The notes: generated from the letters alone by a model not told the origin. A stretch of 64,000 bases of DNA from an uncultured Verrucomicrobiae bacterium (GCA_963707025.1 CAVPOM010000007.1:288001-352000), one strand, 5' to 3'. Shown: positions 6,603-21,312, counted from the first letter of the stretch. Numbers and translations: made by a program.

Positions 6603-6635
6603 TCCTGTCCAGGCCCAACCCTCCTCCCATTCCTT

Positions 6636-7265
6636 CTATTCCTGCTCCGTCACGCTGGCCACTTCCGCCCGCGCGGATTTGCGCTCCATGACCAGCGCCT
6701 TGAATTTCCATTCCTTGCCGGGGAGAATGGACCCCACCTGGTCCATGGCCGAGCCGACTTTCTCGCCCTGGGCGTCGAGCAGGTTCAACTCCACCTTGAT
6801 GCCGAATCGCTGGCGGTCGGATTCGTTGCGCAAGACACCGACGGCATAAACAAGCTCCCCATTTTCCGCTTTCTCCAGGCTGACGGGGCCGGCTTTTAAT
6901 CCATGCCACGGGTCGGGCGGGGGCGCCGCCACGACGGGCGCCGCTTTGGCCGGGATGGCTTTCTCAGTGGACAGGAGTGGCGCGGGCCGATGGGCGAGGA
7001 AATACCATCCGGCCGTCCCGCCCGCCGCCGCCAAAACCGCCACGGCTATCGCGACCACGAACAACTTCCTTCGGGGCCGGGTTTGGGGATTGGGGGGACT
7101 GGCCGCAGCGTCGTCACCGGTCGGGCCGAGATTTGGCTGGAGGACGGTTTGCCAACCGCAATGCGGACACAGGATGGTTTGGCCCACCCCGCTGGCGGGG
7201 AACTCAATATGGCCGCCGCAGTTCTGGCAGGCGCACTTAAAATGAGGTTTAGGTTCTGGCACCAA
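6636..7265 (-). CDS. Zinc-ribbon + TM + FxLYD-domain protein
   Basis: CQNC..CPHC ribbon, hydrophobic helix, VELNLLDAQGEKVGSA..GKEWKFKA C-terminal domain. Confidence 0.75.
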   Translation of the reverse strand: MVPEPKPHFKCACQNCGGHIEFPASGVGQTILCPHCGWQTVLQPNLGPTGDDAAASPPNPQTRPRRKLFVVAIAVAVLAAAGGTAGWYFLAHRPAPLLSTEKAIPAKAAPVVAAPPPDPWHGLKAGPVSLEKAENGELVYAVGVLRNESDRQRFGIKVELNLLDAQGEKVGSAMDQVGSILPGKEWKFKALVMERKSARAEVASVTEQE

Positions 7266-7817
7266 CTCCAGCCACTCTACAACGCAGCCGGTCTTGTGAA
7301 CACAGCAAATTGCAACATGGAAGCCTGCTGGCTCCCATTTCCGTGCCGTGGAATTATCTGCTGCCCCGGCTTAAACCGACCAGGCGTCCCACACGGGCTT
7401 CCCATGTTAAAACCTTCAATTCCGGGCGCTCGCGGCGGGGGACAACGGTTGGCGTGGACATCTTAGGCCTGGAGCCATTGCTCGCGGCCTTGTCGCCATT
7501 TCGTTGCACGACCTTCAGTTTTGGCTCCGTCTCCCAAGGCTCCACCGGCACTGTTTGTGTGTTCACTCTCATATCTATCGGCAACGCCAGCGCGCTGCCT
7601 CCCAGATACCCAGCATGGCCGATGCCAGAATCCGCCAGGGAAAATTCATTTATGTAAGCCGTTCCAGTTAAAGTGTTTGCAATCAGAGCCGCCATCCATC
7701 CACAATGGGCATATCATGCGTATTCTGCTAAAATTGCTGCAAAATGCGTGAAAATGCCGCATGCAGGCCTGCCACATTCGCCATTGTTTCCCGCTCCCGG
7801 CCGGATTAGATTCTGGC

Positions 7818-8297
7818 ATGGCATTGGTGCGCATACTCGTTGATGGCTACAGCCTCCTGCACAATTGGCCGGAGTTGGCGCCAGGCAAACCCCGCCATTC
7901 CGCCGCCGCCCGCGACGCGCTGATCCGCACTCTCACTCTTTATCGCGATGCGGTCGCCACGCCCCTGACCATTGTCTTCGACGGCGCCAACGCCCCCGCC
8001 GCCGCTCCCCCTCCGGTCTCCACCCCAGAATTGGAAATCATTTATTCCCGCGCCGGCCAGACCGCCGATGACATCATCGAGCGGGTCGCCTTCCGCATGA
8101 GGGACTACGGCGAAGTGCTGGTCGTGACCGATGATTACGCCGAGCGCGACACCGTGCTTTCCCTGGACGGCCTGGCCACGAGCTGCCGGAATTTTATCAG
8201 CGATGTCGAAAAAGTCTCGCGCGAGCAGCAGCGGGACATCACCCGCCACAATCGCCGCGAACGCGTGCATTTCCAAGAAATCAAAACTGCCAAATGA
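7818..8297 (+). CDS. YacP/Rae1-like NYN domain protein
   Basis: ILVDGYSLL, IVFDG, TADDIIER, LVVTDD motifs. Confidence 0.85.
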   Translation: MALVRILVDGYSLLHNWPELAPGKPRHSAAARDALIRTLTLYRDAVATPLTIVFDGANAPAAAPPPVSTPELEIIYSRAGQTADDIIERVAFRMRDYGEVLVVTDDYAERDTVLSLDGLATSCRNFISDVEKVSREQQRDITRHNRRERVHFQEIKTAK

Positions 8298-9586
8298 ACC
8301 AGGACAGGCATAGCATCAGCCCCATGAGTTTAGAACAGAAGATCACAAAGGCAACGAAGACTCAAGAAACCCATCTTCGTTTCCTTCGTTGCCTTCTGTT
8401 AATATCCGTTTTTGCATTTTGCATTTTGCATTTTGCATTTTCTTTGCGCGCCCAGCCGCCGGCCCAGACGGAAAACCGCTTTTTATTCATCATCAACACC
8501 TCCTCCGCCATGCGCCGCATGACCAACGGCATCCAGGAAGCCGTCCTCGGCCTGCTCCAATCCCAAATGCAGGGGCAGATGCGCGACGGCGACACTTTTG
8601 GCATCTGGACCTACGACGACCAGCTTCACGCCAATTCGGGCGTGCAGGTCTGGTCCAAAACAAACCAGGCCGCCATCCTCGGAAATGTGTCCAACTGGCT
8701 GGCGGACCGGCCCTACCAAAAGAAGCCCCGCCTGGAAAAGGTCCTGCCCGTCGCCCTCCAGATCGTCGCCCGGTCGCGCGTCGTCACCCTTATCTTTATA
8801 TTTGACGGGTCGGAAACCATGCAGGGGACCGGCTTCGACCAGGACATCAACGCTCTCCAAAAGGACCTCGGCCCCCGCATGCGGGCCGACCGCATCCCCT
8901 TCGTCACCGTGCTGGCGGCGCGCGACGGGAAATTCTTCGATTACCGCGTGAGAACTCCCGCCTCCATCTCGCTGCCGCAGACCGCCGGTTTCTTCCCGCC
9001 GGCCCAAACCAACACCGTCGCAACTGTGGCCGCCACCAATGTGCCGCCCCCGGTCGTGGCGGCCACCAATGTGCCGCCCCCGGTCGTCGTGCCCAAGCCG
9101 CCGGAGACGCGCCGCCCTGAAATTGTCCTCCGACCCACCTCGCCGCCCAGGACCAACCCGCCGCCGGCCGGCGTCTCCGCCCCGCCGGCACAAAGCGCGC
9201 CGGAGAAAACAGAGGCGGTCCTCCAGCCCGCGCCGATGCCAGTGCAAACTCCGTCCAACGCCGTTGTGGCGCCTAATCCTAATCTTAATCCTAATCCTAA
9301 TCCCACCACCCCTCCCATCGTCGCGCAAGAACCCCTCCCGCCCGTCAAGCCTGTGGCTAAGGCGGACAGTCCCTTGCCCGCCGTTTCCCCCGAATCCCTG
9401 CCGCCGCAACCCGCCCCGCCGCCCGTGGCAACCGCCGTGGTAACGCCCTCTTCGGCGGATCACCTCGCTTTATTGGTCATAGCCTCTTCCCTGTTGATCA
9501 TAGCCGGGGTCCTGCTGGTTTTTCTCATCCGCCGTTCCCGCACCCCGCCCAGCCTCATTTCCCAGTCCATGGATCGGCCGCAGTGA
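8294..9586 (+). CDS. vWA-like domain membrane protein with Pro-rich linker and C-terminal TM
   Basis: FLFIINTSSAM MIDAS-like strand, LIFIFDG, C-terminal TM plus RRSR; true start uncertain. Confidence 0.65.
   Translation: MNQDRHSISPMSLEQKITKATKTQETHLRFLRCLLLISVFAFCILHFAFSLRAQPPAQTENRFLFIINTSSAMRRMTNGIQEAVLGLLQSQMQGQMRDGDTFGIWTYDDQLHANSGVQVWSKTNQAAILGNVSNWLADRPYQKKPRLEKVLPVALQIVARSRVVTLIFIFDGSETMQGTGFDQDINALQKDLGPRMRADRIPFVTVLAARDGKFFDYRVRTPASISLPQTAGFFPPAQTNTVATVAATNVPPPVVAATNVPPPVVVPKPPETRRPEIVLRPTSPPRTNPPPAGVSAPPAQSAPEKTEAVLQPAPMPVQTPSNAVVAPNPNLNPNPNPTTPPIVAQEPLPPVKPVAKADSPLPAVSPESLPPQPAPPPVATAVVTPSSADHLALLVIASSLLIIAGVLLVFLIRRSRTPPSLISQSMDRPQ
8410..8437. repeat. (TTTTGCA)4 heptamer tandem repeat
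   Basis: Read directly; related arrays at 10612-10648 and 21492-21520. Confidence 0.8.
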
Positions 9587-9641
9587 GTGAAGCCAGCCTC
9601 TGCCATCGTGCCGGAGCTGTCAAGTCTAAGTCACGGCCGCC

Positions 9642-9869
9642 TCACGGCTTGCGGACAACCCGAACCACGCCGATGCCGACAAACAGGCCGACCTGACCAA
9701 CAATCATGCCCATCAGGCCCCAGTGGAACACCTGCCAAACTAAAAGCGAAATGGCTGCTGATAATACGGCCCACAATAACGCCGGGCCATTGTCAAACAC
9801 GCCTGCCCGATAAAAGCAAACAGCGAACACCACCAGCAACACGGCATTAAATGAATAAAACGGCATCAT
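9642..9869 (-). CDS. Small multi-TM membrane protein, 75 aa
   Basis: Three hydrophobic segments from MMPFYSFNAVLL. Confidence 0.6.
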   Translation of the reverse strand: MMPFYSFNAVLLVVFAVCFYRAGVFDNGPALLWAVLSAAISLLVWQVFHWGLMGMIVGQVGLFVGIGVVRVVRKP

Positions 9870-10022
9870 GGAAAACGAATCACGCCAAAGGCGCGTAACA
9901 CCCTGAACCGCCGACCGCCGCCGGCAAAGGACGACGGCAGCAAATCCAGCGCCCGAACAAGCCAAATTCCCTAAAACCGAAGCACAGGCGGCGGGTAGTG
10001 TTCAGCGAATTGTGCGGGAACA

Positions 10023-10505
10023 TCATTTCGCTGCTCCTTCGTTCAATCTTGCGGCGAGCTGTGCCGCCCCTTGTTCAGAAAACGGACCCGAGATCATAAT
10101 CTTGCCTCGCGAAATTTCATCCTCCACTTTCGGGCTTGTGCAAACCTTGCCGTCAACCACGAAGGCCAGACGGCGGCCAACGTGATCGCGCGTCACCTCC
10201 GCAAAACGCTTGGCGCCTTGCTCAGTGAAAGTGATTTCCACCGCCGGAGTTCCGGTCACTCGATCTTTCTGCACCGCGGCTGATTTGAGGGCTGAGCGGT
10301 CCAGCAGCGGTTTCTTCTGGACGTTCAGCGGCTCGGAGAATGTCTGCCCGGGTGCGGGGCCTTGGTGAAGCTGAATCAACTGCTCTGAATCGGGCGAGGC
10401 GCTGTCGAGCACCAGGCGCACTTCAAATGGTGCCGGCTGCGATGGCTCGGCGGCGGAGAGAGTGCATGCGAGCAGACAGTTCAAAAGGAGCGTTATCGTT
10501 TTCAT
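10023..10505 (-). CDS. Secreted SecDF P1 head-subdomain-like protein
   Basis: Signal peptide; VEITFTEQGAKRFAEVTRDHVGRRLAFVVDG..P...I..G...ISG signature. Confidence 0.8.
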   Translation of the reverse strand: MKTITLLLNCLLACTLSAAEPSQPAPFEVRLVLDSASPDSEQLIQLHQGPAPGQTFSEPLNVQKKPLLDRSALKSAAVQKDRVTGTPAVEITFTEQGAKRFAEVTRDHVGRRLAFVVDGKVCTSPKVEDEISRGKIMISGPFSEQGAAQLAARLNEGAAK

Positions 10506-10700
10506 TCTGTGTTGGGGTTGCTGTTGGGAGAAAGACTGCATCGGTTTATGGTGGCTCTGGCCAATAACCATGTCGCTCCCGCCGCGCAACATCAAGCCCG
10601 TTCCGCGACTATTTTCATTCTGCATTTTTAATTTTGCATTTTGCATTTCGCTGCTTTCGGTTATTTTAACGGAATGTCTTGATGGCGAAATTCAGCACTC

Positions 10701-13778
<3,078 letters not shown>

Positions 13779-13847: not shown

Positions 13848-13924
13848 CGTTACACCGTTACAGTTGTTGATTATCAACGGTTTACGAAAACTGCGCCCGT
13901 TACACCCCGTTACATTCTGTTACA
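13848..13924. repeat. GTTACA direct-repeat array around a GTTGAT-T-ATCAAC palindrome
   Basis: GTTACA at 13849, 13857, 13899, 13909, 13919; palindrome at 13866-13878. Confidence 0.7.
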
Positions 13925-14110
13925 TCCAACCTACTGCCCTTCATCAGATCGGTCAGGTCTTCGATAAGCTGCTCGCTATCGTTGGCCCCTTCGATGCTGT
14001 CTATGATCTGCTCGACGGCCTCTCCCTCGTTTTTCGCTTCGGCCTCCTCTTGGGCCTCCGTTGCCTCGGTCTTCCGCAAGCCTCCAAGAATTGGAGATTC
14101 AAACTTTCAA

Positions 14111-14147
14111 TTGACATTTGACATAATAACGCTTACTTTAAGCGTTA
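14111..14147 (+). promoter_or_regulatory. Sigma70 promoter overlapped by a perfect inverted-repeat operator
   Basis: TTGACA 14111-14116, 17 bp, TACTTT 14134-14139; TAACGCTTA-ctt-TAAGCGTTA at 14127-14147. Confidence 0.7.
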
Positions 14148-14158
14148 CACAGACGTTT

Positions 14159-14758
14159 ATGAATATATCAGCCGAAAATCTTGATGAAATCTTGAGCCGC
14201 CTGAATCGAAAAATGGTTTATGCGGAGGGCAAACCGCTCAATGTGGCGGTATGCGGAGGCTCTGCACTCATCGCCGTTGCTTTAGTGGCTCGTCCAACAA
14301 AGGATGTTGATGTTGTTGCACTCCTTCGCGTGAATCAGGCTAATGTCGAGATTCTGGAGGTCAAGAGTCTGCCTACAGATGTTGAACGGTTGGCTGCGGA
14401 AATCGGGACTGAATTAGGCATTCGGGAAGATTGGTTCAACTTCAATGCGAGTCCGCTGATCGCCTTTGGATTTCCGCCGAACATGACCTCGCGGCTCATC
14501 AAGAAATCCTACGGAATATGCTTGACAGTCTATTTCATCAGTCGCTTTGACCAGGTGCATTTCAAAATATACGCGGCCATGGACCCCAAGGACGGCACCC
14601 GGCACCTCAGCGACCTGCTTGATCTCAAGCCGAAGGAACATGAAGTGAGGGCCGCGGTCTCCTGGCTGCTCGGGCGGAAAGCCAGTGCGGAGTTCAAAGC
14701 CGCCCTCTGCCAAGTGCTGGAGCGAATTGGTTATGAGCGAATCGCTGAACAGATTTAG
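14159..14758 (+). CDS. DUF6036/AbiEii-like nucleotidyltransferase (Pol-beta superfamily), putative toxin
   Basis: VCGGSAL..RPTKDVDV (GGS..DxD) motif, later KIYAA..RHLSDL; 199 aa from ATG 14159. Confidence 0.8.
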   Translation: MNISAENLDEILSRLNRKMVYAEGKPLNVAVCGGSALIAVALVARPTKDVDVVALLRVNQANVEILEVKSLPTDVERLAAEIGTELGIREDWFNFNASPLIAFGFPPNMTSRLIKKSYGICLTVYFISRFDQVHFKIYAAMDPKDGTRHLSDLLDLKPKEHEVRAAVSWLLGRKASAEFKAALCQVLERIGYERIAEQI

Positions 14759-17700
14759 GGAAAAACTGAGCGAACTGGTACTGAACTTCGTTCTTGGGCA
14801 GTGGGCCGCCGTCGGCGTCATGGCCACCCGCACCTCGGACCAAGCGCGCGTCATAGACCCTGAGCCGTTGTTGCTGCTGACTTTGGAGGTTGCCCGGCAC
14901 GATCCACGCACGTTCGACGAAGTTCTCGACTGGCTTATTACGAACGGCCGATGGATCAATGTCACCCGACTTGCTGCGTTGTTTGAAGCGGACAGGATTT
15001 GCGCCCCAGAGGTATTGGGCGCTGTCGCGGCCACCCTGTCGCTGCACGACAAGACACCCAAATGGCGCAACTTGGCTGCCAGGTTAAAGCCACTCCCCGA
15101 CAAATCCCCGGAGGCGCTATTCCGCAAAAACGGCCAACCGCTGTTCCTGCCTGGTTCGGAGCCGGATGCCATTTTCAAATCCTATGGATTGCTCCGCACC
15201 CCTGTGCAAACGCGCGGACTTTCCTCCCCGGTTTTACCGTCGCGGACGTTGGAGTGGAGTGCCGCGAACTTCATGTTCAAAGCACGGGCATTATTTGGAG
15301 TGAGCATTCGCGCGGATGCTTTCACTCTTGTCGTGCTGCATGGGTCCTCCAATCCAACCCGCATCGCCCGCGAACTCGGCTATTCCCAGCGTCGCGTGCA
15401 AGATGCTTTGTTGGACATGACATCCGCCGGTGTTTTCCAAGTTCGGAATGTCGGCAATGCCAAGGAGTATTTTGCGGATTCCGAAAGGGTGTTGCGTTTT
15501 CTTGGCGCTCTCGAGGAAGGGATTTGCTGGTTTGATTGGAGAACTCAAGCCCGGGCCTTGAGCACCGTTTGGCGCCGCGTCTTCGCGATGCGTGAGGAGA
15601 ATTTAACGGCTTATATTTTGGAATCGGAACAGGAGAAAATCCTCCGCGAAGTAGAGAATGACCTGCTGCGGGCCATCCCCAAACGTCCCGCTGCCACACT
15701 TGCCGGCTCTGGCCTTCTGCCAGGGAAGCCCCAGGGTTTGATGGAAACAATACAAAGGACTTTACCGCCGTCTGGTGACTTCAAGTGGCAGCGGTTGTGG
15801 GTGGCCCGCGGAGGCAGAATCAGCCTCGCCGATGGCGGATTTCCATACCTTGCCACATTTCCGTGGGACACATCCCGTCCTGAAGTGGTGCCCTATGAGT
15901 CCATCGCCGCCATCCCATGCCTGGTCTTGTTGGGCGAGCCGGGGATGGGAAAGAGCCATGCCATCAGAGCGGCGAAGGAATCCGCTCAATCTTCAATGGA
16001 TGCCACGAAGGCGAAGTCGCTCTTTCTCGATCTTAAATCGTATGGAAACGAAGAACGGTTGAGGAAAGATTTGTTTGGTTCACCCGAGTTCCGGGGATGG
16101 TCCAACGGCGAATTTCAACTCCATCTTTTCCTCGACAGCTTGGACGAGGCGCTCTTGAATCAGCAAACCATCGCCGGTGTGTTGGCCGATGGGATCGGCC
16201 AACTCCCATCTATGGCAGGTTTGTCGCTCCGCATCGCTTGCCGGACGGCCGATTGGCCCTCGGAATTGGAGCAAGCCCTGAAATTGAAATGGCCAGAACC
16301 TGATTTCGGCGTGTACGAATTGGCCCCGCTGACCAGAAACGATGTCAGCGAAGCAGCCAAAGGCAGTGGGATTGACGCAACTGCTTTCCAGCGCTTGATT
16401 GAGGACCATGACTTGGTTCCTTTGGCCTGCAAACCGATTACCCTCAAATTCCTGCTTCTAACCTTCGCGCGAGGCACCTTGCATGGTTTTAGCCAAAAAC
16501 AACTGTACGCGAAAGGATGCCGCATTCTCTGCGAGGAGCAAAGTCCTGCACGCAGACGGTCAAAAGGGGTCTGTACGCTCACCCCCGACCAACGGTTTCA
16601 AATCGCAATGCGCATCGCCGCGGCGACTATTTTGTGCCAACGGGACGCGATCTGGACGGCGGCAGAAAGCGGCGATCCATTGGAATCAGACGTGACCATG
16701 AACGAGCTGTGTGTGGGACCTTTCTCTGCAACAGGCGTTGCCCTCACCCGTGAAAACGTGATGGAAACGCTTTCAACAGGTTTGTTCTGTTCTCGCGGGG
16801 AGAACCGACTCGGCTGGGCGCATCAGACGTACGCCGAGTTCCTGGCCGCTCAGTTTCTTCATGACAGCAAGATGTCGCTTGAGAAAATGCTCAAGTTGTT
16901 GGTCTATCACGGAGATTCGGAAGGAAAACTGGTTCCGCAACTCCATGAAACCGCAGCCTGGCTGGCGACGATGGATGCCTCTATCCGTGAGGCTATATTC
17001 AAGACCGAGCCGGATATACTGTTGCGCAGCGACATTTCGTCCGCAGGCGATGAAGACAAAGAAGGACTTGTGAGAGTCCTGTTAAGACAACTCAATGATG
17101 GAGTCTTAGACAGCCTCCCCTCGCGTCAAAGGTGGCCAAAACTCAAGCATCCAAAAATGGCAGACCAACTCCGCCCGTACATCCTGGACCGGTCGAAGTC
17201 AATGAACGCCCGGTTGGAAGCAATCAACCTCGCTGAAGCTTGTGAACTGACGGAATTTGCCAACGACTTGGCGGAAATCGCGTTGGACCACAGCGAGGAG
17301 AGTCAGCTTCGCAAAGGCGCCGCTTTATTTGTGGCCCACCTCGGTTTGGCGACCGAAAAAGGGCGATTGAAGCCCCTGGTCCACCTATCCGCCGAAGAAG
17401 ACCCAAAAAACGATTTAAAGGGGTGCGCCCTCGAAGCGTGTTGGCCGGAGCAAATGTCCGGTGCTGAACTTTTTTCAGTGCTGACGCTTCCACCAGAGAA
17501 CGGGTTCTATGGCACGTACAAGCATTTCCTAGCGCGTCGGCTCATCGGCAACATAAAGGCGGAACATTTGCCACAGGCGCTCAGATGGGTGCGACAGCAA
17601 AAGCCACGACGTGGGCTTCGTCCTTCCTTTGGCAAACTACTAGAGGAGATCCTCAAAATTGCTGCTAATAATCTGGAGGGACCTGATGTGCTTGATGAGT

Positions 17701-19937
17701 TTTCAAGAACGATCCTGGATCGGCTGCGAAAGCATGATTTGGACATCCGGTCTGACGAGTGGCTGCAGATGCTCAAGACTGACGACCAACTGAGGTTGCA
17801 TATTGTCGAGACAATTCTGTGTGAACTTTCGCAAGCCAATGAGAGCCAGGGGTCGGTGACCATGTTCATGGGGGAGTGTCCGATACTGACTCGAAATGAT
17901 TTCAACTGGTTGGCGGATCATCTGGAGCGAGAAGACAACCGCGAGCGCCAGGCGGTGCTGGCGCAGTGGTTGCAGTTGGCTTGGATCAAAATGGATTGGT
18001 CGCAAACCGAAAGGATCATGAGTCTTGCGGAGAAAATCCCTGCCGCACACAAGCGATTCTTGCCCGACTTGAGTCCGATTGAACTTGGTTCAGAAAGAGC
18101 GAAAAGGGAGCGTGAAGAGTATGAAGCTCTCGCCAGCATCCACCAAGACGAAGCGGAAGCACAACAACCACTGGATCCGCCTCCCTATAAGAGGGTCCTG
18201 TCAATTCTGGAGCAATTCGAAGGCGGGAATACAGATGTCTTTTGGCTACTGGTCAGGGAACTCTGCTTGACAGCGAAGAGCAACTATTACGATAATGAAG
18301 AAGCTTCCGACGTTACACAATTGCCTGGTTGGAAGGAGGCGGATTCGTCAGTTCGAGGCCGGATCATCAAAGCTGCGGAAACTTATATCCGGGACAAAGA
18401 CGCCAATCCCGATGCCTGGTTTACGGAACCAAACATTGTCCATCTTCCGGCCGCAGCCGGCTTCAAGGCGCTTTATCTCCTTTACAAGGAAGCACCACTC
18501 CTGTTTCCCGCGTTGCCCGTCAGTGTTTGGAGTAAGTGGGTCGCAATCATTCTGGGTTATCCAGTATTTGATGAACTTGAACCCCACACGATTTTGACGC
18601 GAAAAGCCTACGAGGTCGTCCCGGAAGACACACTGTTATGGTTTGCGAAAGTCTTGCAAAAGGAGAAACGGGAATCCGCAGGACCGGCCGTCTTGAGCAA
18701 GTTGGGCGGTTTGTGGGACAGCCGGATTGCCGGCCTCGTTCTCCAAACCGCCAAAGACCCGGAAACCAGCCCGGATACTCTGGCAGACCTCCTCAAAGCC
18801 ATGCTGGGACAAAGGGAGACCGATGCAGTTTCACTTGCTTCATCGCTGCTTGATCTCCGCTCATCCGCCGATGAATTCAGCCGTCAGAAAGCGTTGGCTG
18901 CCGCTGAAATCTTGGTCGAGCATTCCCCAGGAAGTTGGAATGCGTTGTGGCCTTTGATTCTCGAGGATGGCCCTTTTGGGAGAAACTTCGTGGCCAGACT
19001 TGCTTACACTTATTTTCTCACGCCGACCGTGCTCCTTAATCAATTGAGTGAAGACCAAGTTGCAGAACTATATTGCTGGCTTGTCGGGCACTATCCGCAT
19101 GAAAAGGACAAGAGGCGCACCGGTGCCCATTTCGTTGGCCCTGAGGAAAAGATCGAGCGATTGCGCGATGGAGTGCTCCAACATCTTTCCGAGCGTGGAA
19201 CACCGGCGACCCTTTCTGCCATCGAATCCATCCAGAGCAGGTTGCCCAAATTGGATCTCAAGCAAGTGCTGTCACACGCCAAGGCGATCACACGCAAAAA
19301 GGACTGGCGGCCACCCACGCCCGGCGACTTGTTCGCTTTTGCCGATCAAAGGGATGCCCGCCTCGTCCGGGATGCCGATGAATTACTGGAAGCTGTCCTG
19401 GAGAGCCTCGCCAAATTCGGAATAAAACTCCAGGGGGAGACTCCCTTGAGTCAGTATCTCTGGAACATTGCCGACGACATATTTCGACCAAAAGACGAAG
19501 CCGCGTTTGCGGACCAAGTCAAGCTGCACCTCCAGACTGATCTGGCTTCATGCGGCATCATTCCCAAACGCGAAGTTGAGATTCGGCGAGGTCAGGAGAC
19601 GGATATCCATGTGGATGCGGTGGCAAAAGTGGAAGGCGCCTCATATAAAGCGGTTAGCGTCATTATCGAAACCAAATGCTCCTGGAACCCTGGATTGGAG
19701 AAGGACATGGAATCACAACTGGCCGGACGTTACCTTCGAGACAACCAATGTCAGCATGGAATCTACTTGGTGGGCTGGTTCACCAGCGACAAATGGGACG
19801 ATAAAGACTACCGCCGCAGGCGCTTGACGTCCTCCGACAAAAGTGCGTTGCAGGCGAACCTTGACGCCAAAGCAGAAGAGTTGTCCAAAGCGGGGATTAA
19901 GGTTCGGGCAATGATCCTGGATGCCAGCCTGCGATAA
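14733..19937 (+). CDS. 1734-aa fusion: antitoxin-like/wHTH module + NACHT/STAND NTPase + helical repeats + C-terminal PD-(D/E)xK nuclease
   Basis: HTH NPTRIARELGYSQRRVQDAL; Walker A GEPGMGKS at 15933-15956; Walker B LFLDSLDE near 16125-16148; IACR sensor, PITL and WAHQTYAEFLAA winged-helix motifs; ETDIHV..IIETK at 19596-19676. Confidence 0.8.
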   Translation: MSESLNRFREKLSELVLNFVLGQWAAVGVMATRTSDQARVIDPEPLLLLTLEVARHDPRTFDEVLDWLITNGRWINVTRLAALFEADRICAPEVLGAVAATLSLHDKTPKWRNLAARLKPLPDKSPEALFRKNGQPLFLPGSEPDAIFKSYGLLRTPVQTRGLSSPVLPSRTLEWSAANFMFKARALFGVSIRADAFTLVVLHGSSNPTRIARELGYSQRRVQDALLDMTSAGVFQVRNVGNAKEYFADSERVLRFLGALEEGICWFDWRTQARALSTVWRRVFAMREENLTAYILESEQEKILREVENDLLRAIPKRPAATLAGSGLLPGKPQGLMETIQRTLPPSGDFKWQRLWVARGGRISLADGGFPYLATFPWDTSRPEVVPYESIAAIPCLVLLGEPGMGKSHAIRAAKESAQSSMDATKAKSLFLDLKSYGNEERLRKDLFGSPEFRGWSNGEFQLHLFLDSLDEALLNQQTIAGVLADGIGQLPSMAGLSLRIACRTADWPSELEQALKLKWPEPDFGVYELAPLTRNDVSEAAKGSGIDATAFQRLIEDHDLVPLACKPITLKFLLLTFARGTLHGFSQKQLYAKGCRILCEEQSPARRRSKGVCTLTPDQRFQIAMRIAAATILCQRDAIWTAAESGDPLESDVTMNELCVGPFSATGVALTRENVMETLSTGLFCSRGENRLGWAHQTYAEFLAAQFLHDSKMSLEKMLKLLVYHGDSEGKLVPQLHETAAWLATMDASIREAIFKTEPDILLRSDISSAGDEDKEGLVRVLLRQLNDGVLDSLPSRQRWPKLKHPKMADQLRPYILDRSKSMNARLEAINLAEACELTEFANDLAEIALDHSEESQLRKGAALFVAHLGLATEKGRLKPLVHLSAEEDPKNDLKGCALEACWPEQMSGAELFSVLTLPPENGFYGTYKHFLARRLIGNIKAEHLPQALRWVRQQKPRRGLRPSFGKLLEEILKIAANNLEGPDVLDEFSRTILDRLRKHDLDIRSDEWLQMLKTDDQLRLHIVETILCELSQANESQGSVTMFMGECPILTRNDFNWLADHLEREDNRERQAVLAQWLQLAWIKMDWSQTERIMSLAEKIPAAHKRFLPDLSPIELGSERAKREREEYEALASIHQDEAEAQQPLDPPPYKRVLSILEQFEGGNTDVFWLLVRELCLTAKSNYYDNEEASDVTQLPGWKEADSSVRGRIIKAAETYIRDKDANPDAWFTEPNIVHLPAAAGFKALYLLYKEAPLLFPALPVSVWSKWVAIILGYPVFDELEPHTILTRKAYEVVPEDTLLWFAKVLQKEKRESAGPAVLSKLGGLWDSRIAGLVLQTAKDPETSPDTLADLLKAMLGQRETDAVSLASSLLDLRSSADEFSRQKALAAAEILVEHSPGSWNALWPLILEDGPFGRNFVARLAYTYFLTPTVLLNQLSEDQVAELYCWLVGHYPHEKDKRRTGAHFVGPEEKIERLRDGVLQHLSERGTPATLSAIESIQSRLPKLDLKQVLSHAKAITRKKDWRPPTPGDLFAFADQRDARLVRDADELLEAVLESLAKFGIKLQGETPLSQYLWNIADDIFRPKDEAAFADQVKLHLQTDLASCGIIPKREVEIRRGQETDIHVDAVAKVEGASYKAVSVIIETKCSWNPGLEKDMESQLAGRYLRDNQCQHGIYLVGWFTSDKWDDKDYRRRRLTSSDKSALQANLDAKAEELSKAGIKVRAMILDASLR

Positions 19938-20246
19938 GCGGAAGCCAGAAGGCCAGGCGTTCGCCCCGCCCGTTGTCGAAATCCAGGCGAAGTCTTTGCG
20001 TTCATTCGCGTTCGTTGGCGGCAATTCCTCCCTAGCGCCCATCATTTTGCCCCTCAATGATTTTGCCTCTCCCCATGATTCTGTCCTGCCATGATTCCGT
20101 TCTCATCCCGCCCGCCCTTCGTTGTCTCCGCGCCCTCCTGTTCAAATCCCCTTCTTGTTTGAGCATTCCGATTTTCCGCATCTGCGTGAATCTGCGTCCA
20201 TCTGCGGGAAACTCCGGAATCGGTTGCGATTTGTCGCGCCAAGCCC

Positions 20247-20311
20247 TTTGGCGGCAATTCCTGGTCTTGGTTCTGGAATCAAAGCAAAGGCTCCGTTTCG
20301 CCTCCTTCTGT
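20247..20311. repeat. Direct repeat, copy A, flanking the DUF6883/DUF4926-like pair
   Basis: 24-bp exact match tttggcggcaattcctggtcttgg with 21116-21139; similarity continues downstream. Confidence 0.8.
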
Positions 20312-20340
20312 TGATAAACCTGCCCCGCCCGGTATTGGTG

Positions 20341-20589
20341 TCACACGGCGTGGGCGAGTGGGCGCACATGCAGGACGCTTTTCGCCGTGAGCGGCTCGAT
20401 TTGTGACTCCCGCACCGTCACGACGTCAACGGTCTCGCCCACCGCGTTAAACACCTCCAAGGTGTAACCTGGTTCCTGTTCCAGACGGCCTGGATGGTAT
20501 TCGACAATCGTAGCCACATCCCCGCGCTCAAGCCGATGCTTGGGCAGGCTGGCCTTTAGTGATACTCTGCTGAACATCTTATATTTCAT
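20341..20589 (-). CDS. DUF4926-like protein (putative antitoxin/immunity)
   Basis: LERGDVATIVE..GYTLEVFNAVGETVDVVTV pattern; ATGA overlap with the upstream gene. Confidence 0.75.
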   Translation of the reverse strand: MKYKMFSRVSLKASLPKHRLERGDVATIVEYHPGRLEQEPGYTLEVFNAVGETVDVVTVRESQIEPLTAKSVLHVRPLAHAV

Positions 20590-20912
20590 GTCTTTTCCGG
20601 ATAAAGCGTCACAAACTTGGACTTGCCCCCGGCGTGCTCGACCATCCAAATGGACACCACGCGCAAGGTCCGTCCATTCGGCCCTGTCAATTTGCCGCGG
20701 ATCTCATATTTGGTGCCATATTCGCCTCGTTCCAAAAATTTGGCTTCGTGTGGCAGCAATTGCGTTCGCAGGTCTGCCAACAGTCGGTCGGTGGTTTCCG
20801 GAATGTAACCGGCTCCAGCCAGAAAACCTGACTTGTCGTCCTCCGGACGACTCACCAGAAGATAGTCGCTGATCTTTCGGCGCGCAATAAAAGTATCAGG
20901 CCGCAATCTCAT
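20586..20912 (-). CDS. DUF6883-like protein (putative toxin)
   Basis: KISDYLL..DKSGFL..GY..YGTKYEIRGKLTGPNGR..V.SIW pattern. Confidence 0.75.
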   Translation of the reverse strand: MRLRPDTFIARRKISDYLLVSRPEDDKSGFLAGAGYIPETTDRLLADLRTQLLPHEAKFLERGEYGTKYEIRGKLTGPNGRTLRVVSIWMVEHAGGKSKFVTLYPEKT

Positions 20913-21115
20913 TGGCGGAACTCAGTTGCGTAGTGACGCCGGTGCCTGTCGGTCGGCCTGGATGACCCAAGCGCCTCCGGCGTCATCGGCGTTGTCCCGT
21001 CATGGCCGGGGTAAATCATATTAAACTCTGCCGACAACAGGGTAAAGTCCCGTCCAGCCATTCTCAAGAGTCTTTCTTAAACCGGTGCCCCACGGTTTCT
21101 CGACGCGCTGGGCCG

Positions 21116-21186
21116 TTTGGCGGCAATTCCTGGTCTTGGGTTTGGAATCAACGCAAAACCTCCGTTCCCTTCGCGTTCTTCTGTTT
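21116..21186. repeat. Direct repeat, copy B
   Basis: Matches 20247-20311. Confidence 0.8.
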
Positions 21187-21312
21187 AAAGATCTTCCTGT
21201 CTTCGCGAGCGGTGCGTTCTTTGAGGTCAATTCATTCTCGGCTGCGGCTTTGCCGCGCTGCGGTTCCTCCGCTGTCGGAATCAAGCGCAATCATCAGTAT
21301 CCTTTCGATGAA

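What the first reader, a model, noticed from the sequence alone, without database searches (positions are those of the whole stretch)
14111..19937. Candidate new defence system: nucleotidyltransferase toxin plus an antitoxin-like module fused to an NLR-like STAND nuclease
Seen: a two-gene operon with a 26-nt overlap and non-host codon usage, downstream of uvrA. Gene 1 carries a Pol-beta GGS..DxD motif. Gene 2 is one 1734-aa frame: about 340 aa ending in a wHTH, a NACHT/STAND NTPase (GEPGMGKS, LDSLDE, HQTYAEFLAA), roughly 900 aa of helical repeats, and a C-terminal D..ExK nuclease. Established: AbiE/MenAT type IV systems pair a nucleotidyltransferase toxin with a wHTH autoregulator; Avs and bacterial NACHT proteins sense phage and usually carry the effector at the N-terminus. 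Inference: here the N-terminal slot holds the toxin's partner and the nuclease sits at the C-terminus, so sensor activation could both unleash the nucleotidyltransferase and switch on a nuclease (a guard-type, dual-output system). I know of no description of this combination but cannot search for one.
Basis: partly seen in the sequence, partly recalled or inferred. Interest (0 to 1): 0.92.

Follow-up and report, generated by a model that had tools for sequence, protein, structure and literature searches.

The report
Toxin-antitoxin pair fused to NLR
A bacterial immune-receptor-like protein (NACHT ATPase, helical sensor, DNA-cutting tail) carries at its front end the usual partner protein of a small nucleotidyltransferase encoded just upstream, so a toxin-antitoxin-like pair appears to have been wired onto a phage sensor.

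Summary
Gene 1 (14159-14758, 199 aa) is a DUF6036 Pol-beta nucleotidyltransferase. It overlaps by 26 nt a 1734-aa gene (14733-19937) made of a 345-aa wHTH module, a NACHT NTPase, a long sensor region and a PD-(D/E)xK nuclease-like tail.

The 345-aa module is a widespread free-standing protein. It follows a gene 1 homologue in 34 of 36 genome loci, and in 73 of 80 metagenome loci found through gene 1. A complex model supports binding (0.68; best control 0.00).

Two claims need correction:
- The NACHT-to-nuclease part is not new. It is a co-linear but distant relative of Erebus/Hypnos (EruA/HyoA, 'Avs10'), far below NCBIfam cut-offs, and belongs to a large family of about 1400-aa proteins without the module. 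The C-terminal nuclease is a family trait.
- Capture of toxin-antitoxin units by NTPase sensors has been proposed before, for ParA.

The fusion is real and conserved: in-frame in 5 of the 36 genome loci (three complete, 36-43% identity in the NACHT part; two cut at a contig end) and in a second copy in this genome. It lies in a variable, low-GC3 spot. The dual-output 'guard' mechanism is untested.

Verdict: a new variant of a known kind.

The parts
14098..14147 (+). Promoter-like site with a perfect 9-nt inverted repeat (TAACGCTTA-N3-TAAGCGTTA, 14127-14147), 12 nt before the start codon: candidate operator for the wHTH module
   Evidence: The promoter scan gives TTCAAA-18-CATAAT at 14098-14127. 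Such sites are no more frequent in the region than in shuffles. The inverted repeat is 100% complementary. TTGACAT-TTGAC and the palindrome are conserved in the paralogue, L004 and L003, while the sequence further upstream does not align. Binding by the module is inferred.
14159..14758 (+). Gene 1: DUF6036 Pol-beta-fold nucleotidyltransferase, 199 aa (candidate toxin or effector)
   Evidence: Pfam DUF6036 E 8.9e-6, above the cut-off; AbiEii only E 0.16. PADLOC AbiEii models E 0.0012 and 0.012. G33 G34 D49 D51 D131 Q132 K136 D142 H149 D152 are invariant in 25 sequences. The best solved relative by profile is 8an4_A (AbiEii/AbiGii-family toxin), at E 0.19 only.
14733..15767 (+). Gene 2, residues 1-345: NTase-partner module (helical N-domain, irregular stretch 120-175, wHTH 176-250, C-terminal helices)
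   Evidence: Stand-alone homologues of 330-350 aa reach 85% identity over 100% of the module. There are 1967 clusters at E<=1e-3. Model pLDDT 83.8, pTM 0.86. Only the wHTH matches solved folds (RPC62 2xub_A Z 10.5, rmsd 2.1, 74 aligned; ArsR/MarR/TrmB types). Pfam gives a weak TrmB hit at 194-246. The predicted interface with gene 1 uses residues 57-59, 62, 130-143 and 155-159.
15768..16900 (+). Gene 2, residues about 346-720: NACHT-type STAND NTPase (Walker A GEPGMGKS 401-408, Walker B LDSLDE 467-472, HQTYAEFLAA 697)
   Evidence: Motif positions. NCBIfam EruA 2.4e-70 and HyoA 2.7e-53, both 'NACHT domain-containing antiphage protein'. Weak Pfam AAA_22 and AAA_16 hits at 395-449. DSLDE fits the D[GAS]hDE signature quoted in the Kibby et al. 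preprint (passage seen).
16901..19310 (+). Gene 2, residues about 720-1526: sensor region, presumed helical repeats
   Evidence: Co-linear with the EruA and HyoA profiles to about residue 1143. Homologue P0008 aligns with EruA over profile positions 22-1273 in one stretch. Weak HEAT_2 hit in P0008. Not folded here.
19311..19937 (+). Gene 2, residues about 1527-1734: PD-(D/E)xK (restriction-endonuclease-like) domain; E1589, D1624, E1646, K1648
   Evidence: These four residues are invariant in 29 sequences (positions 150, 185, 207 and 209 of the 1440-1734 piece). Model pLDDT 84.2. VIA-wide top rows: BamHI 1bam_A Z 7.6, rmsd 4.5, 145 aligned; EcoT38I 7.4; BstYI 7.0; OkrAI 7.0. All are below Z 8. 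Foldseek found nothing at E<=0.001. The piece alone matches EruA profile 1077-1312 of 1318 (2.6e-18) and HyoA 1146-1426 of 1430 (1.1e-16).

Best explanation
This is a composite anti-phage locus made from two older units.

Unit A is a widespread two-gene, toxin-antitoxin-like cassette: a DUF6036 Pol-beta nucleotidyltransferase followed, with a short overlap, by a 340-aa wHTH protein that binds it.

Unit B is a single-gene NLR-like defence protein of the wider Erebus/Hypnos ('Avs10') kind: NACHT NTPase, helical sensor and a C-terminal PD-(D/E)xK nuclease.

In one verrucomicrobial lineage the wHTH partner was fused in frame to the N-terminus of unit B.

Shown: the anatomy, the pairing, the conserved fusion, the accessory and island-like location.

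Inferred working model:
1. The wHTH module represses the operon at the palindrome over the promoter and holds the NTase in a neutral complex at the N-terminus of the resting receptor.
2. A phage protein bound by the sensor drives NTP-dependent oligomerisation of the NACHT domain.
3. Oligomerisation brings the nuclease tails together so that they cut DNA.
4. It also rearranges the clustered N-terminal modules so that the NTase is released or activated as a second effector. By analogy with MenT and AbiEii this would act on tRNA and translation.

My odds: composite anatomy with true pairing 0.9; defence role 0.75; NTase as a second output of receptor activation about 0.3.
For: Pairing:
- A gene 1 homologue lies immediately upstream of the module in 34 of 36 genome loci. 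The two exceptions are L006, cut at its 5' end, and L036, a weak partial hit.
- The module lies immediately downstream of gene 1 in 73 of 80 metagenome loci found through gene 1. Six of the 7 misses have no more than 139 nt left; L117 has 875 nt and no hit.

Binding model: ipSAE 0.68 (runs 0.72, 0.66, 0.68) against a best control of 0.00. That mark was reached by 116 of 157 solved complexes and 2 of 215 mismatched pairs. The runs share at least 86% of their contacts and the partner's pLDDT is at least 82. The tool says its calibration counts hold only roughly here, because my own alignments were used. The interface uses residues that are invariant in both families.

Fusion is real:
- In-frame fused genes in L004, L005, L006, L007 and L024. 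L005, L007 and L024 are complete (1738, 1703 and 1747 aa). L004 and L006 are cut at a contig end, so only partial fused frames of 1182 and 939 aa are seen.
- Further fused genes in L048 (cut), L049 and L064.
- A second copy in the same genome, with 84%, 90% and 92% identity for NTase, module and NACHT part.
- A DNA contig of a relative spans 14101-16400.

Unit B exists alone: more than 100 proteins of about 1400 aa cover residues about 345-1734 at 37-41% identity, from Moorella, Syntrophothermus, Brocadiaceae and a Euryarchaeote among others. It is homologous to EruA/HyoA from the NACHT domain to the C-terminal domain.

Defence context:
- The free pair sits between hsdM and hsdS of type I R-M operons in L029, L031 and L035, which is 3 of 36 loci.
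- A SIR2+TIR gene lies beside the fused gene in L007.
- JetA lies beside the paralogue.
- The module is also fused to Schlafen AlbA_2 (P0270) and DUF5677 (P0258).

Accessory nature: the NACHT part is found in 3 of 31 genomes of the family, this genome included. The uvrA-TPR gap is 7.9 kb here, 4.2 kb in G017, which has a different 893-aa AAA_13 ATPase there, and 1.9 kb in G020.

Operator: a perfect palindrome at the promoter is conserved in fused and free loci.

Literature: Avs10 (Erebus/Hypnos/bNACHT64) is activated by phage major capsid protein (PMC12803255; abstract and section 10 read).
Against: No experiment bears on toxicity, binding, DNA cutting or phage protection.

The similarity to EruA/HyoA is far below their curated cut-offs: 238 bits against 1000 and 181 against 1200. 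The trigger, capsid or otherwise, cannot be carried over. PADLOC models (2023) find nothing for gene 2 or its relatives.

The NTase matches AbiEii and MenT-type toxins only weakly (E 0.16 in Pfam, 0.19 against PDB). Its toxicity is assumed. The gene order, NTase first, is the reverse of AbiE.

The predicted interface lies on the NTase's C-terminal helices (140-154, 182-189), not clearly on its active site. How binding would silence it is open.

Most free pairs have ordinary housekeeping neighbours: 8 of the 12 free loci scanned.

The nuclease-fold matches are all below Z 8, and Foldseek gave nothing at E<=0.001.

The unfused family shows that unit B needs no NTase, so the pair may add nothing to signalling.
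Confidence: 0.5

Rival explanations
1. Passenger or addiction cassette. The NTase-wHTH pair is a selfish toxin-antitoxin unit that stabilises the locus, and at most supplies the promoter and autoregulation. The fused NLR works exactly like its unfused 1400-aa relatives through its nuclease, and the NTase is not an output of sensing.
For: The unfused family is large and complete without the pair. The pair is far commonest as a free cassette: 31 of 36 genome loci are unfused, and 136 of the best 150 family representatives carry no long C-terminal extension. Many free pairs have housekeeping neighbours. Some free modules near the window's clade derive from fused genes by deletion, so the two parts separate easily: L047 keeps an out-of-frame NACHT remnant. 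The same operator is present in free (L003) and fused loci.
Against: The fusion has been kept in frame while the NACHT part diverged to 36-43% identity (L005, L007, L024) and in two copies in one genome. The module is fused to several other C-terminal partners, including Schlafen AlbA_2. That looks like a reusable adaptor rather than an accident.
Confidence: 0.25
2. The NTase is a regulator, not a toxin. As MNT nucleotidylylates and silences HEPN toxins, the DUF6036 enzyme would modify the wHTH module or the receptor and keep it off, and the first-gene position would be that of an antitoxin.
For: The gene order, NTase first with an overlapping downstream partner, is that of MNT-HEPN pairs (order recalled, not tested). 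The NTase matches toxin families only weakly. The binding model does not place the partner over the active site.
Against: The free 340-aa partner shows no recognisable toxic or enzymatic domain, only a wHTH. Weak hints come from decay patterns. Gene 1 looks broken or partial in 8 of 34 loci found through the module (L001, L002, L007, L008, L009, L012, L023, L028) while the module stays open, as expected if the NTase is the harmful part. But MAG errors and the way the loci were found bias this, and L021 shows the reverse.
Confidence: 0.12
3. Signal-transducing transcription factor. An N-terminal DNA-binding domain, a STAND NTPase and helical repeats make up the layout of AfsR/MalT-type regulators, so the protein would control genes in response to a ligand and not defend against phage.
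For: A wHTH lies at the N-terminal side. A conserved palindrome lies at its own promoter. The Lee et al. preprint notes that non-immune STAND regulators are intermingled with defence clades (section 4 read).
Against: The PD-(D/E)xK catalytic residues in the tail are invariant. There is homology to experimentally antiphage EruA/HyoA. The distribution is patchy and the locus lies in a variable spot. Defence genes are neighbours.
Confidence: 0.05
4. The long frame is an assembly or frameshift artefact that joins two separate genes.
For: Very close stand-alone modules exist (85% identity; L001, L003, P0123).
Against: Fused frames are seen independently in 5 genome loci, 3 metagenome loci, protein clusters P0003-P0010 and a second copy in this genome. 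A DNA contig from another run spans the junction.
Confidence: 0.01

Closest known systems
Erebus / Hypnos (EruA, HyoA; 'Avs10', bNACHT64) NACHT antiphage proteins
   Same: Co-linear homology over the whole 346-1734 part. The NACHT domain starts within about 60 residues of the homologous start, followed by a long sensor and the same kind of C-terminal domain. The best stretch runs from EruA profile position 72 to 742, and the tail matches positions 1077-1312. These are single-gene systems. Activation by phage major capsid protein is reported for Avs10 (PMC12803255, abstract and section 10).
   Different: Scores are a quarter or less of the equivalog cut-offs, so this is another, distant family. 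Judged from the profile coordinates, EruA and HyoA have no 345-aa N-terminal module. No associated NTase gene is known to me. The original Erebus/Hypnos paper (van den Berg 2024) was not readable here and is known only from a reference list.
AbiE (AbiEi/AbiEii) and MenAT nucleotidyltransferase toxin-antitoxin systems
   Same: A small Pol-beta NTase is paired with a wHTH-containing partner that is modelled to bind it. The candidate operator suggests autoregulation. Some copies sit in R-M and defence contexts. The AbiE preprint (abstract read) reports a stable AbiEi-AbiEii complex and neutralisation by antitoxin-induced auto-phosphorylation.
   Different: The NTase is DUF6036, not DUF1814/AbiEii (12.3 bits against a cut-off of 22.5). 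The partner has no AbiEi Pfam hit and its wHTH is central rather than N-terminal. The gene order is reversed. Toxicity is untested.
ParA-based 'apoptosis' systems that captured a toxin-antitoxin unit (bioRxiv 10.64898/2026.10.19.760177, section 24 read)
   Same: The concept is the same. A TA pair, including Pol-beta NTase toxins with HTH antitoxins, is joined to an NTPase carrying a sensor, sometimes with a NACHT module, and is predicted to form one complex that releases the toxin on sensing.
   Different: There the third component is a separate ParA-fusion gene. Here there is no ParA. The antitoxin-like protein itself is fused to a NACHT receptor that also has its own nuclease.
Adaptor-type N-terminal domains of bacterial NACHT/STAND proteins (EADs, Death-like and wHTH adaptors; Kibby et al. 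preprint, Supplementary Discussion passages)
   Same: A non-catalytic N-terminal domain is proposed to recruit an effector encoded elsewhere. C-terminal effectors after the repeats are described there as infrequent but known.
   Different: EADs pair like with like. Here the adaptor is one half of a heterotypic TA-like pair that also exists on its own in very many genomes.

Membership tests
Pfam DUF6036 (nucleotidyltransferase) | Score above the Pfam gathering cut-off | tested here: met
   26 bits against 23.6, E 8.9e-6, residues 20-146
Pol-beta-fold nucleotidyltransferases | hG[GS] ... DhD catalytic motif and a third acidic residue | tested here: met
   G33 G34 S35, D49 and D51 are present. 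G33, G34, D49, D51 and D131 are invariant in 25 sequences. The motif definition is recalled, not taken from a call.
AbiEii / DUF1814 toxin | Score above the Pfam cut-off for PF08843 | tested here: not met
   12.3 bits against 22.5, E 0.16. PADLOC AbiEii models E 0.0012 and 0.012.
AbiEii / MenT toxins | Growth inhibition neutralised by the cognate partner | not testable with these tools
   Needs expression assays
AbiEi antitoxin | Match to an AbiEi Pfam family; N-terminal wHTH | tested here: not met
   No AbiEi family appears among the Pfam hits at E<=1 for gene 2. The wHTH is at 176-250, not at the N-terminus.
Toxin-antitoxin-like pair (generic) | Conserved adjacent two-gene unit whose products bind each other | tested here: met
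   Adjacency in 34 of 36 and 73 of 80 loci. For binding there is only a model: 0.68 against a best control of 0.00.
NACHT clade of STAND NTPases | Walker A, and Walker B with the D[GAS]hDE signature | tested here: met
   GEPGMGKS at 401 and LDSLDE at 467. The signature is as quoted in the Kibby preprint. Pfam NACHT itself gives no hit for the window protein and only E 0.00095 in relative P0275.
Erebus EruA (NF058535) / Hypnos HyoA (NF058534) equivalogs | Score above the NCBIfam cut-offs (1000 and 1200 bits) | tested here: not met
   238 and 181 bits. The unfused relatives score 265-310 and 158-210 bits.
Erebus/Hypnos ('Avs10') kind | Same architecture from NACHT to C-terminal domain | tested here: met
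   Co-linear matches to both profiles, including the last 230-280 positions
Erebus/Hypnos ('Avs10') kind | Activation by phage major capsid protein; phage protection | not testable with these tools
   Known only from PMC12803255
PD-(D/E)xK nucleases | Restriction-endonuclease fold with D...(D/E)xK residues | tested here: met
   E1589, D1624, E1646 and K1648 are invariant. The best fold rows are restriction enzymes at Z 7.6-6.7, modest values. Catalysis is not tested.
PADLOC-DB v2.0.0 defence systems | Any model match for gene 2 | tested here: not met
   0 families for gene 2, for its parts and for 6 relatives at E<=0.01 or 1. The library dates from 2023.

The most novel reading that the evidence does not exclude
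A pattern-recognition receptor signals through a built-in antitoxin. Phage-protein binding and NACHT oligomerisation pull the fused wHTH module off the DUF6036 nucleotidyltransferase and off its operator. One sensing event then fires a DNA nuclease, frees a translation-targeting NTase and derepresses the operon. The module would be a portable 'toxin dock' that different sensors and effectors (NACHT, Schlafen AlbA_2, DUF5677 and unknown domains) have picked up repeatedly. The free DUF6036-wHTH pair, with about 2000 clusters at 50% identity, would be a large uncharacterised abortive-infection family.
Probability: 0.3. Interest if true: 0.8.

Novelty: new variant of a known kind. Interest (0 to 1): 0.6.

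Why it matters
How toxin-antitoxin modules are triggered by phage, and how bacterial NLR-like receptors pass a signal to effectors encoded in other genes, are both open questions. This locus joins the two physically. The partner of a small nucleotidyltransferase is part of the receptor polypeptide, so the coupling can be tested with three point mutants and one truncation.

The work also defines a large two-gene family that no paper in the searched library mentions: 'DUF6036' is held by 0 papers. The family is a DUF6036 NTase plus a 340-aa wHTH partner, found free, inside type I R-M operons, and fused to several different C-terminal domains.

If the NTase proves to be a passenger, the result is still useful. 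It places a widespread 1400-aa NACHT-nuclease family next to Erebus/Hypnos.

Tried and rejected
- Foldseek against the PDB gave no match at E<=0.001 for either model. For the module, only the wHTH part (residues about 173-262) was really tested by the fold lists. The N-terminal helical domain (1-117) and the stretch 120-175 remain without a fold assignment.
- The ESM Atlas returned only unnamed clusters of the same family.
- PADLOC found nothing for gene 2 or its pieces.
- The supplementary tables of PMC12803255 could not be read because the files are too large. Whether the 1400-aa family has a clade or sensor-cluster number there is unknown. The original Erebus/Hypnos paper is not in the library.
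- Promoter and terminator scans of the region were no richer than shuffles. Only the site at 14098-14127 is used, because of its conserved palindrome.
- Sequencing runs hold only small shares of the stretch's words (0.06-0.11). When laid, they carry relatives at about 90% identity. RNA-library contigs lie on parts of gene 2 (14781-15554 and 15800-16346), but in one run only, and DNA carry-over cannot be excluded, so this is not evidence of expression.
- Comparing gene decay, NTase against module, to tell which is the toxin is inconclusive. Each set of loci was found through one of the two genes, and MAGs carry frameshift errors.
- Tree: one origin of the fusion is neither shown nor excluded. 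All 7 fused rows fall in one 11-row clade with weak support (80/55), and the starred branches force at least 2 changes. L021 (frameshifted) and L036 (weak hit) were left out.


Full report
**1. What is there**

The window carries two overlapping genes on the + strand, downstream of uvrA (10701-13778).

- Gene 1 runs from the ATG at 14159 to 14758 (199 aa).
- Gene 2 runs from the ATG at 14733 to 19937 (1734 aa).
- The overlap is 26 nt.
- The start of gene 2 is fixed by 17 stand-alone homologues that begin at the same methionine.

The operon's GC3 is 0.58-0.64. The conserved genes on either side have 0.74-0.79. The only corrections are that the wHTH lies in the middle of the N-terminal module, and that the sensor's helical nature was not folded here.

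**2. Gene 1**

Gene 1 passes Pfam's cut-off for DUF6036 (E 8.9e-6). It touches AbiEii only weakly: E 0.16 in Pfam, and 0.0012 and 0.012 for two PADLOC models. In 25 homologues G33, G34, D49, D51, D131, Q132, K136, D142, H149 and D152 are invariant. The nearest solved chain by profile is an AbiEii/AbiGii-family toxin, 8an4_A, at E 0.19. Gene 1 is therefore a catalytically intact Pol-beta NTase and at best a distant cousin of the AbiEii/MenT toxins.

**3. The N-terminal 345 residues of gene 2**

This was the crux of the finding.

Family size and stand-alone forms:
- A search restricted to shorter proteins found 234 hits. Most are 330-350 aa and cover the whole module, at up to 85% identity.
- A profile search of 1.84 billion representatives found 1967 clusters at E<=1e-3, and 422 at E<=1e-30.

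Pairing with gene 1:
- Scanning one genome per species with the module's alignment gave 36 loci, mostly Verrucomicrobiota and other PVC bacteria, with some Thermodesulfobacteriota and Myxococcota.
- In 34 of the 36 a gene 1 homologue lies directly upstream, usually with a 23-nt overlap. The exceptions are a locus cut at its 5' end and a weak partial hit.
- The reciprocal scan started from gene 1's alignment in metagenome contigs and kept 80 loci. The module lies directly downstream in 73. Six of the 7 misses have no more than 139 nt of sequence left. One (L117) has 875 nt and no hit.

Structure and binding:
- The module's model (pLDDT 83.8, pTM 0.86) has a helical N-domain, an irregular stretch, a wHTH at 176-250 and C-terminal helices.
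- Only the wHTH matches solved folds: Z up to 10.5 over 74 residues, and nothing at Foldseek E<=0.001.
- A complex model of module plus NTase scored 0.68 (runs 0.72, 0.66, 0.68) against a best control of 0.00. That mark was reached by 116 of 157 solved complexes and 2 of 215 mismatched pairs. The runs agree in at least 86% of contacts and the partner's pLDDT is at least 82. The tool warns that these counts hold only roughly with my own alignments.
- The interface (module 57-59, 62, 130-143, 155-159; NTase 140-154, 182-189) includes residues invariant in both families.

The model supports binding but does not show it.

**4. The rest of gene 2**

NCBIfam gives partial hits to the antiphage NACHT proteins EruA (2.4e-70, 238 bits, cut-off 1000) and HyoA (2.7e-53, 181 bits, cut-off 1200). 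The last 295 residues alone match the last 230-280 positions of both profiles (2.6e-18 and 1.1e-16). The relative P0008 aligns with EruA over profile positions 22-1273 in one stretch. So residues 346-1734 are co-linear with Erebus/Hypnos from the NACHT domain to the C-terminal domain, but far too distant to be filed as either.

More than 100 proteins of about 1400 aa from many phyla cover exactly residues about 345-1734 at 37-41% identity and lack the module.

The C-terminal model (pLDDT 84.2) has restriction endonucleases as its best fold rows: BamHI Z 7.6, rmsd 4.5, 145 aligned; EcoT38I 7.4; BstYI and OkrAI 7.0. All are below Z 8. E1589, D1624, E1646 and K1648 are invariant in 29 sequences.

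The C-terminal nuclease is therefore a trait of the whole family, not something created by this fusion. Passages of the Kibby et al. preprint say that effectors at the extreme C-terminus are infrequent but known, and they list wHTH domains among N-terminal 'adaptors'. PMC12803255 (abstract and section 10) groups Erebus/Hypnos/bNACHT64 as Avs10, activated by phage major capsid protein. Whether that trigger applies at this distance cannot be said.

**5. Is the fusion real, and how old is it?**

In-frame fused genes occur in:
- L004 and L006 (both cut at a contig end; 74-78% identity in the NACHT part), L005 (43%), L007 (43%) and L024 (36%);
- L048 (cut), L049 and L064;
- protein clusters P0003-P0010;
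- a second copy in this very genome on contig C8, with 84%, 90% and 92% identity for NTase, module and NACHT part.

In a tree of 36 module sequences all 7 fused rows fall in one clade of 11 with 4 free rows. The support is weak (80/55), and at least two changes are forced. L047 shows one route back to a free module: a deletion has removed about 1027 residues and left the module followed by an out-of-frame NACHT remnant. One old fusion followed by losses is the simplest reading, but it is not proven.

Among the best 150 representatives of the module family, 6 are fused to NACHT proteins. Eight carry other C-terminal extensions, unrelated to the NACHT part and, apart from one short match, to one another. 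These include DUF5677 (P0258) and Schlafen AlbA_2 (P0270). The module thus behaves as a reusable N-terminal piece.

**6. Context**

- The free pair sits between hsdM and hsdS of type I R-M operons in L029, L031 and L035, which is 3 of 36 loci.
- It lies next to an Eco57I-like methylase, a PIN gene and a transposase in L003.
- The fused gene in L007 is followed by a SIR2+TIR gene.
- The paralogue lies beside jetA.
- Eight of the 12 free loci scanned have ordinary housekeeping neighbours (137 of 139 neighbour ORFs were scanned).
- In the window, a DUF6883/DUF4926 pair lies downstream on the other strand.
- The NACHT part is found in 3 of 31 genomes of the family, this one included, and in none of the other 9 genera.
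- Between uvrA and the TPR gene the window has 7.9 kb. A same-genus genome (G017) has 4.2 kb with a different 893-aa AAA_13/SMC-type ATPase, and another (G020) has 1.9 kb.

This is a variable spot with changing cargo.

**7. Regulation**

A perfect palindrome, TAACGCTTA-N3-TAAGCGTTA (14127-14147), lies at the promoter-like site, 12 nt before the start codon. It is conserved, together with TTGACA, in the paralogue, in the fused L004 and in the free L003, while the sequence further upstream does not align. In the paralogue and L004 the three spacer bases help to form a TAATAT hexamer 17 nt after TTGACA, as read from the alignment. Autorepression by the wHTH module is a reasonable inference but is untested.

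**8. How it probably works**

Shown: two units, a TA-like NTase/wHTH pair and an Erebus/Hypnos-like NACHT-sensor-nuclease, are joined through the wHTH protein in an accessory locus.

Inferred: the module docks and silences the NTase and represses the operon. Phage-protein binding oligomerises the NACHT domain and activates the nuclease tails by proximity. The same rearrangement frees or activates the NTase.

The AbiE preprint (abstract read) reports that AbiEi binds AbiEii stably and neutralises it through induced auto-phosphorylation. This gives a precedent for control by a bound partner.

Rivals are a passenger or addiction cassette, an NTase that acts as a negative regulator, and a non-defence transcription factor. 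An assembly artefact is excluded for practical purposes.

**9. Novelty**

- 'DUF6036' occurs in 0 papers of the library.
- A search for 'STAND NTPase', 'antitoxin' and 'nucleotidyltransferase' together found 7 papers. In the passages of the two I opened, none describes this fusion.
- The closest precedent is a 2026 preprint on ParA NTPases that captured TA units, including Pol-beta NTase toxins with HTH antitoxins and sometimes a NACHT module (section 24 read).
- Kaur et al. 2020 describe the recruitment of a TA-derived toxin as a co-effector in other NTP-dependent systems (passage seen).

The theme is therefore known. The direct fusion of the antitoxin-like partner to a nuclease-bearing NLR, and the underlying DUF6036-wHTH family, appear undescribed within what I could search. 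The supplements of PMC12803255 were unreadable and may list the NACHT family.

Verdict: a new variant of a known kind, with interest 0.6.

Noticed in passing
G000 contig C8, locus L039:5376-11157 (minus strand): A second, full-length copy of the whole operon in the same genome, with 84%, 90% and 92% identity for NTase, module and NACHT part. A JetA (Wadjet) gene lies beside it at L039:13761-15245.
   Followed up: partly
window 17133-18632 (gene 2 residues about 801-1300) against L039: The two paralogues are 100% identical over about 500 residues of the sensor, while the rest is 78-96% identical. This could be recent gene conversion between the copies, or collapse in assembly.
   Followed up: no
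window 13848-13914 and 14143-14149: Five of the window's seven CGTTACA copies lie within 300 nt upstream of gene 1 (chance expectation for the whole window 2.3). One of them lies inside the palindrome. They may be further binding sites or the end of a mobile element.
   Followed up: no
window 20005-20127, 20243-20321, 21109-21260: Short repeated non-coding elements (core GGCGGCAATTCCTGGTCTTGG) flank the DUF4926/DUF6883 pair. They recur at the same uvrA-TPR locus of the same-genus genome G017 (76-85% identity).
   Followed up: partly
window 20341-20912 (minus strand): A DUF6883 gene (20586-20912) and a DUF4926 gene (20341-20649) overlap, so they look like a small two-gene toxin-antitoxin-like pair in the same low-GC3 island.
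   Followed up: no
L029, L031, L035 (about 4800-13500 in each): The free DUF6036-wHTH pair is inserted between hsdM and hsdS of type I restriction-modification operons. L029 has an extra DUF4917 gene, and in L035 hsdR is cut short next to an IS200-like transposase.
   Followed up: partly
L047:6001-8690: A deletion derivative: intact NTase and module (88% identity), then an out-of-frame remnant matching only residues 1028-1389 of the NACHT part. The NTPase and half of the sensor are gone.
   Followed up: partly
proteins P0170, P0258, P0264, P0270, P0281, P0326, P0360, P0368: The module is fused to other C-terminal parts that are unrelated to the NACHT part and, apart from one short P0264/P0281 match, to one another: DUF5677 in P0258, Schlafen AlbA_2 in P0270, and nothing recognisable in the rest, including the 1509-aa P0281.
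   Followed up: partly
L045:1225-3903 (G017, same genus, same uvrA-TPR locus): In place of the NLR operon this genome carries an 893-aa AAA_13/SMC_N/AAA_21-type ATPase on the opposite strand, so the site looks like a hotspot for changing cargo.
   Followed up: partly
window 13900-14079 (minus strand): A 59-aa, very acidic open frame lies between uvrA and gene 1, divergent from the operon. It was not tested for homologues.
   Followed up: no
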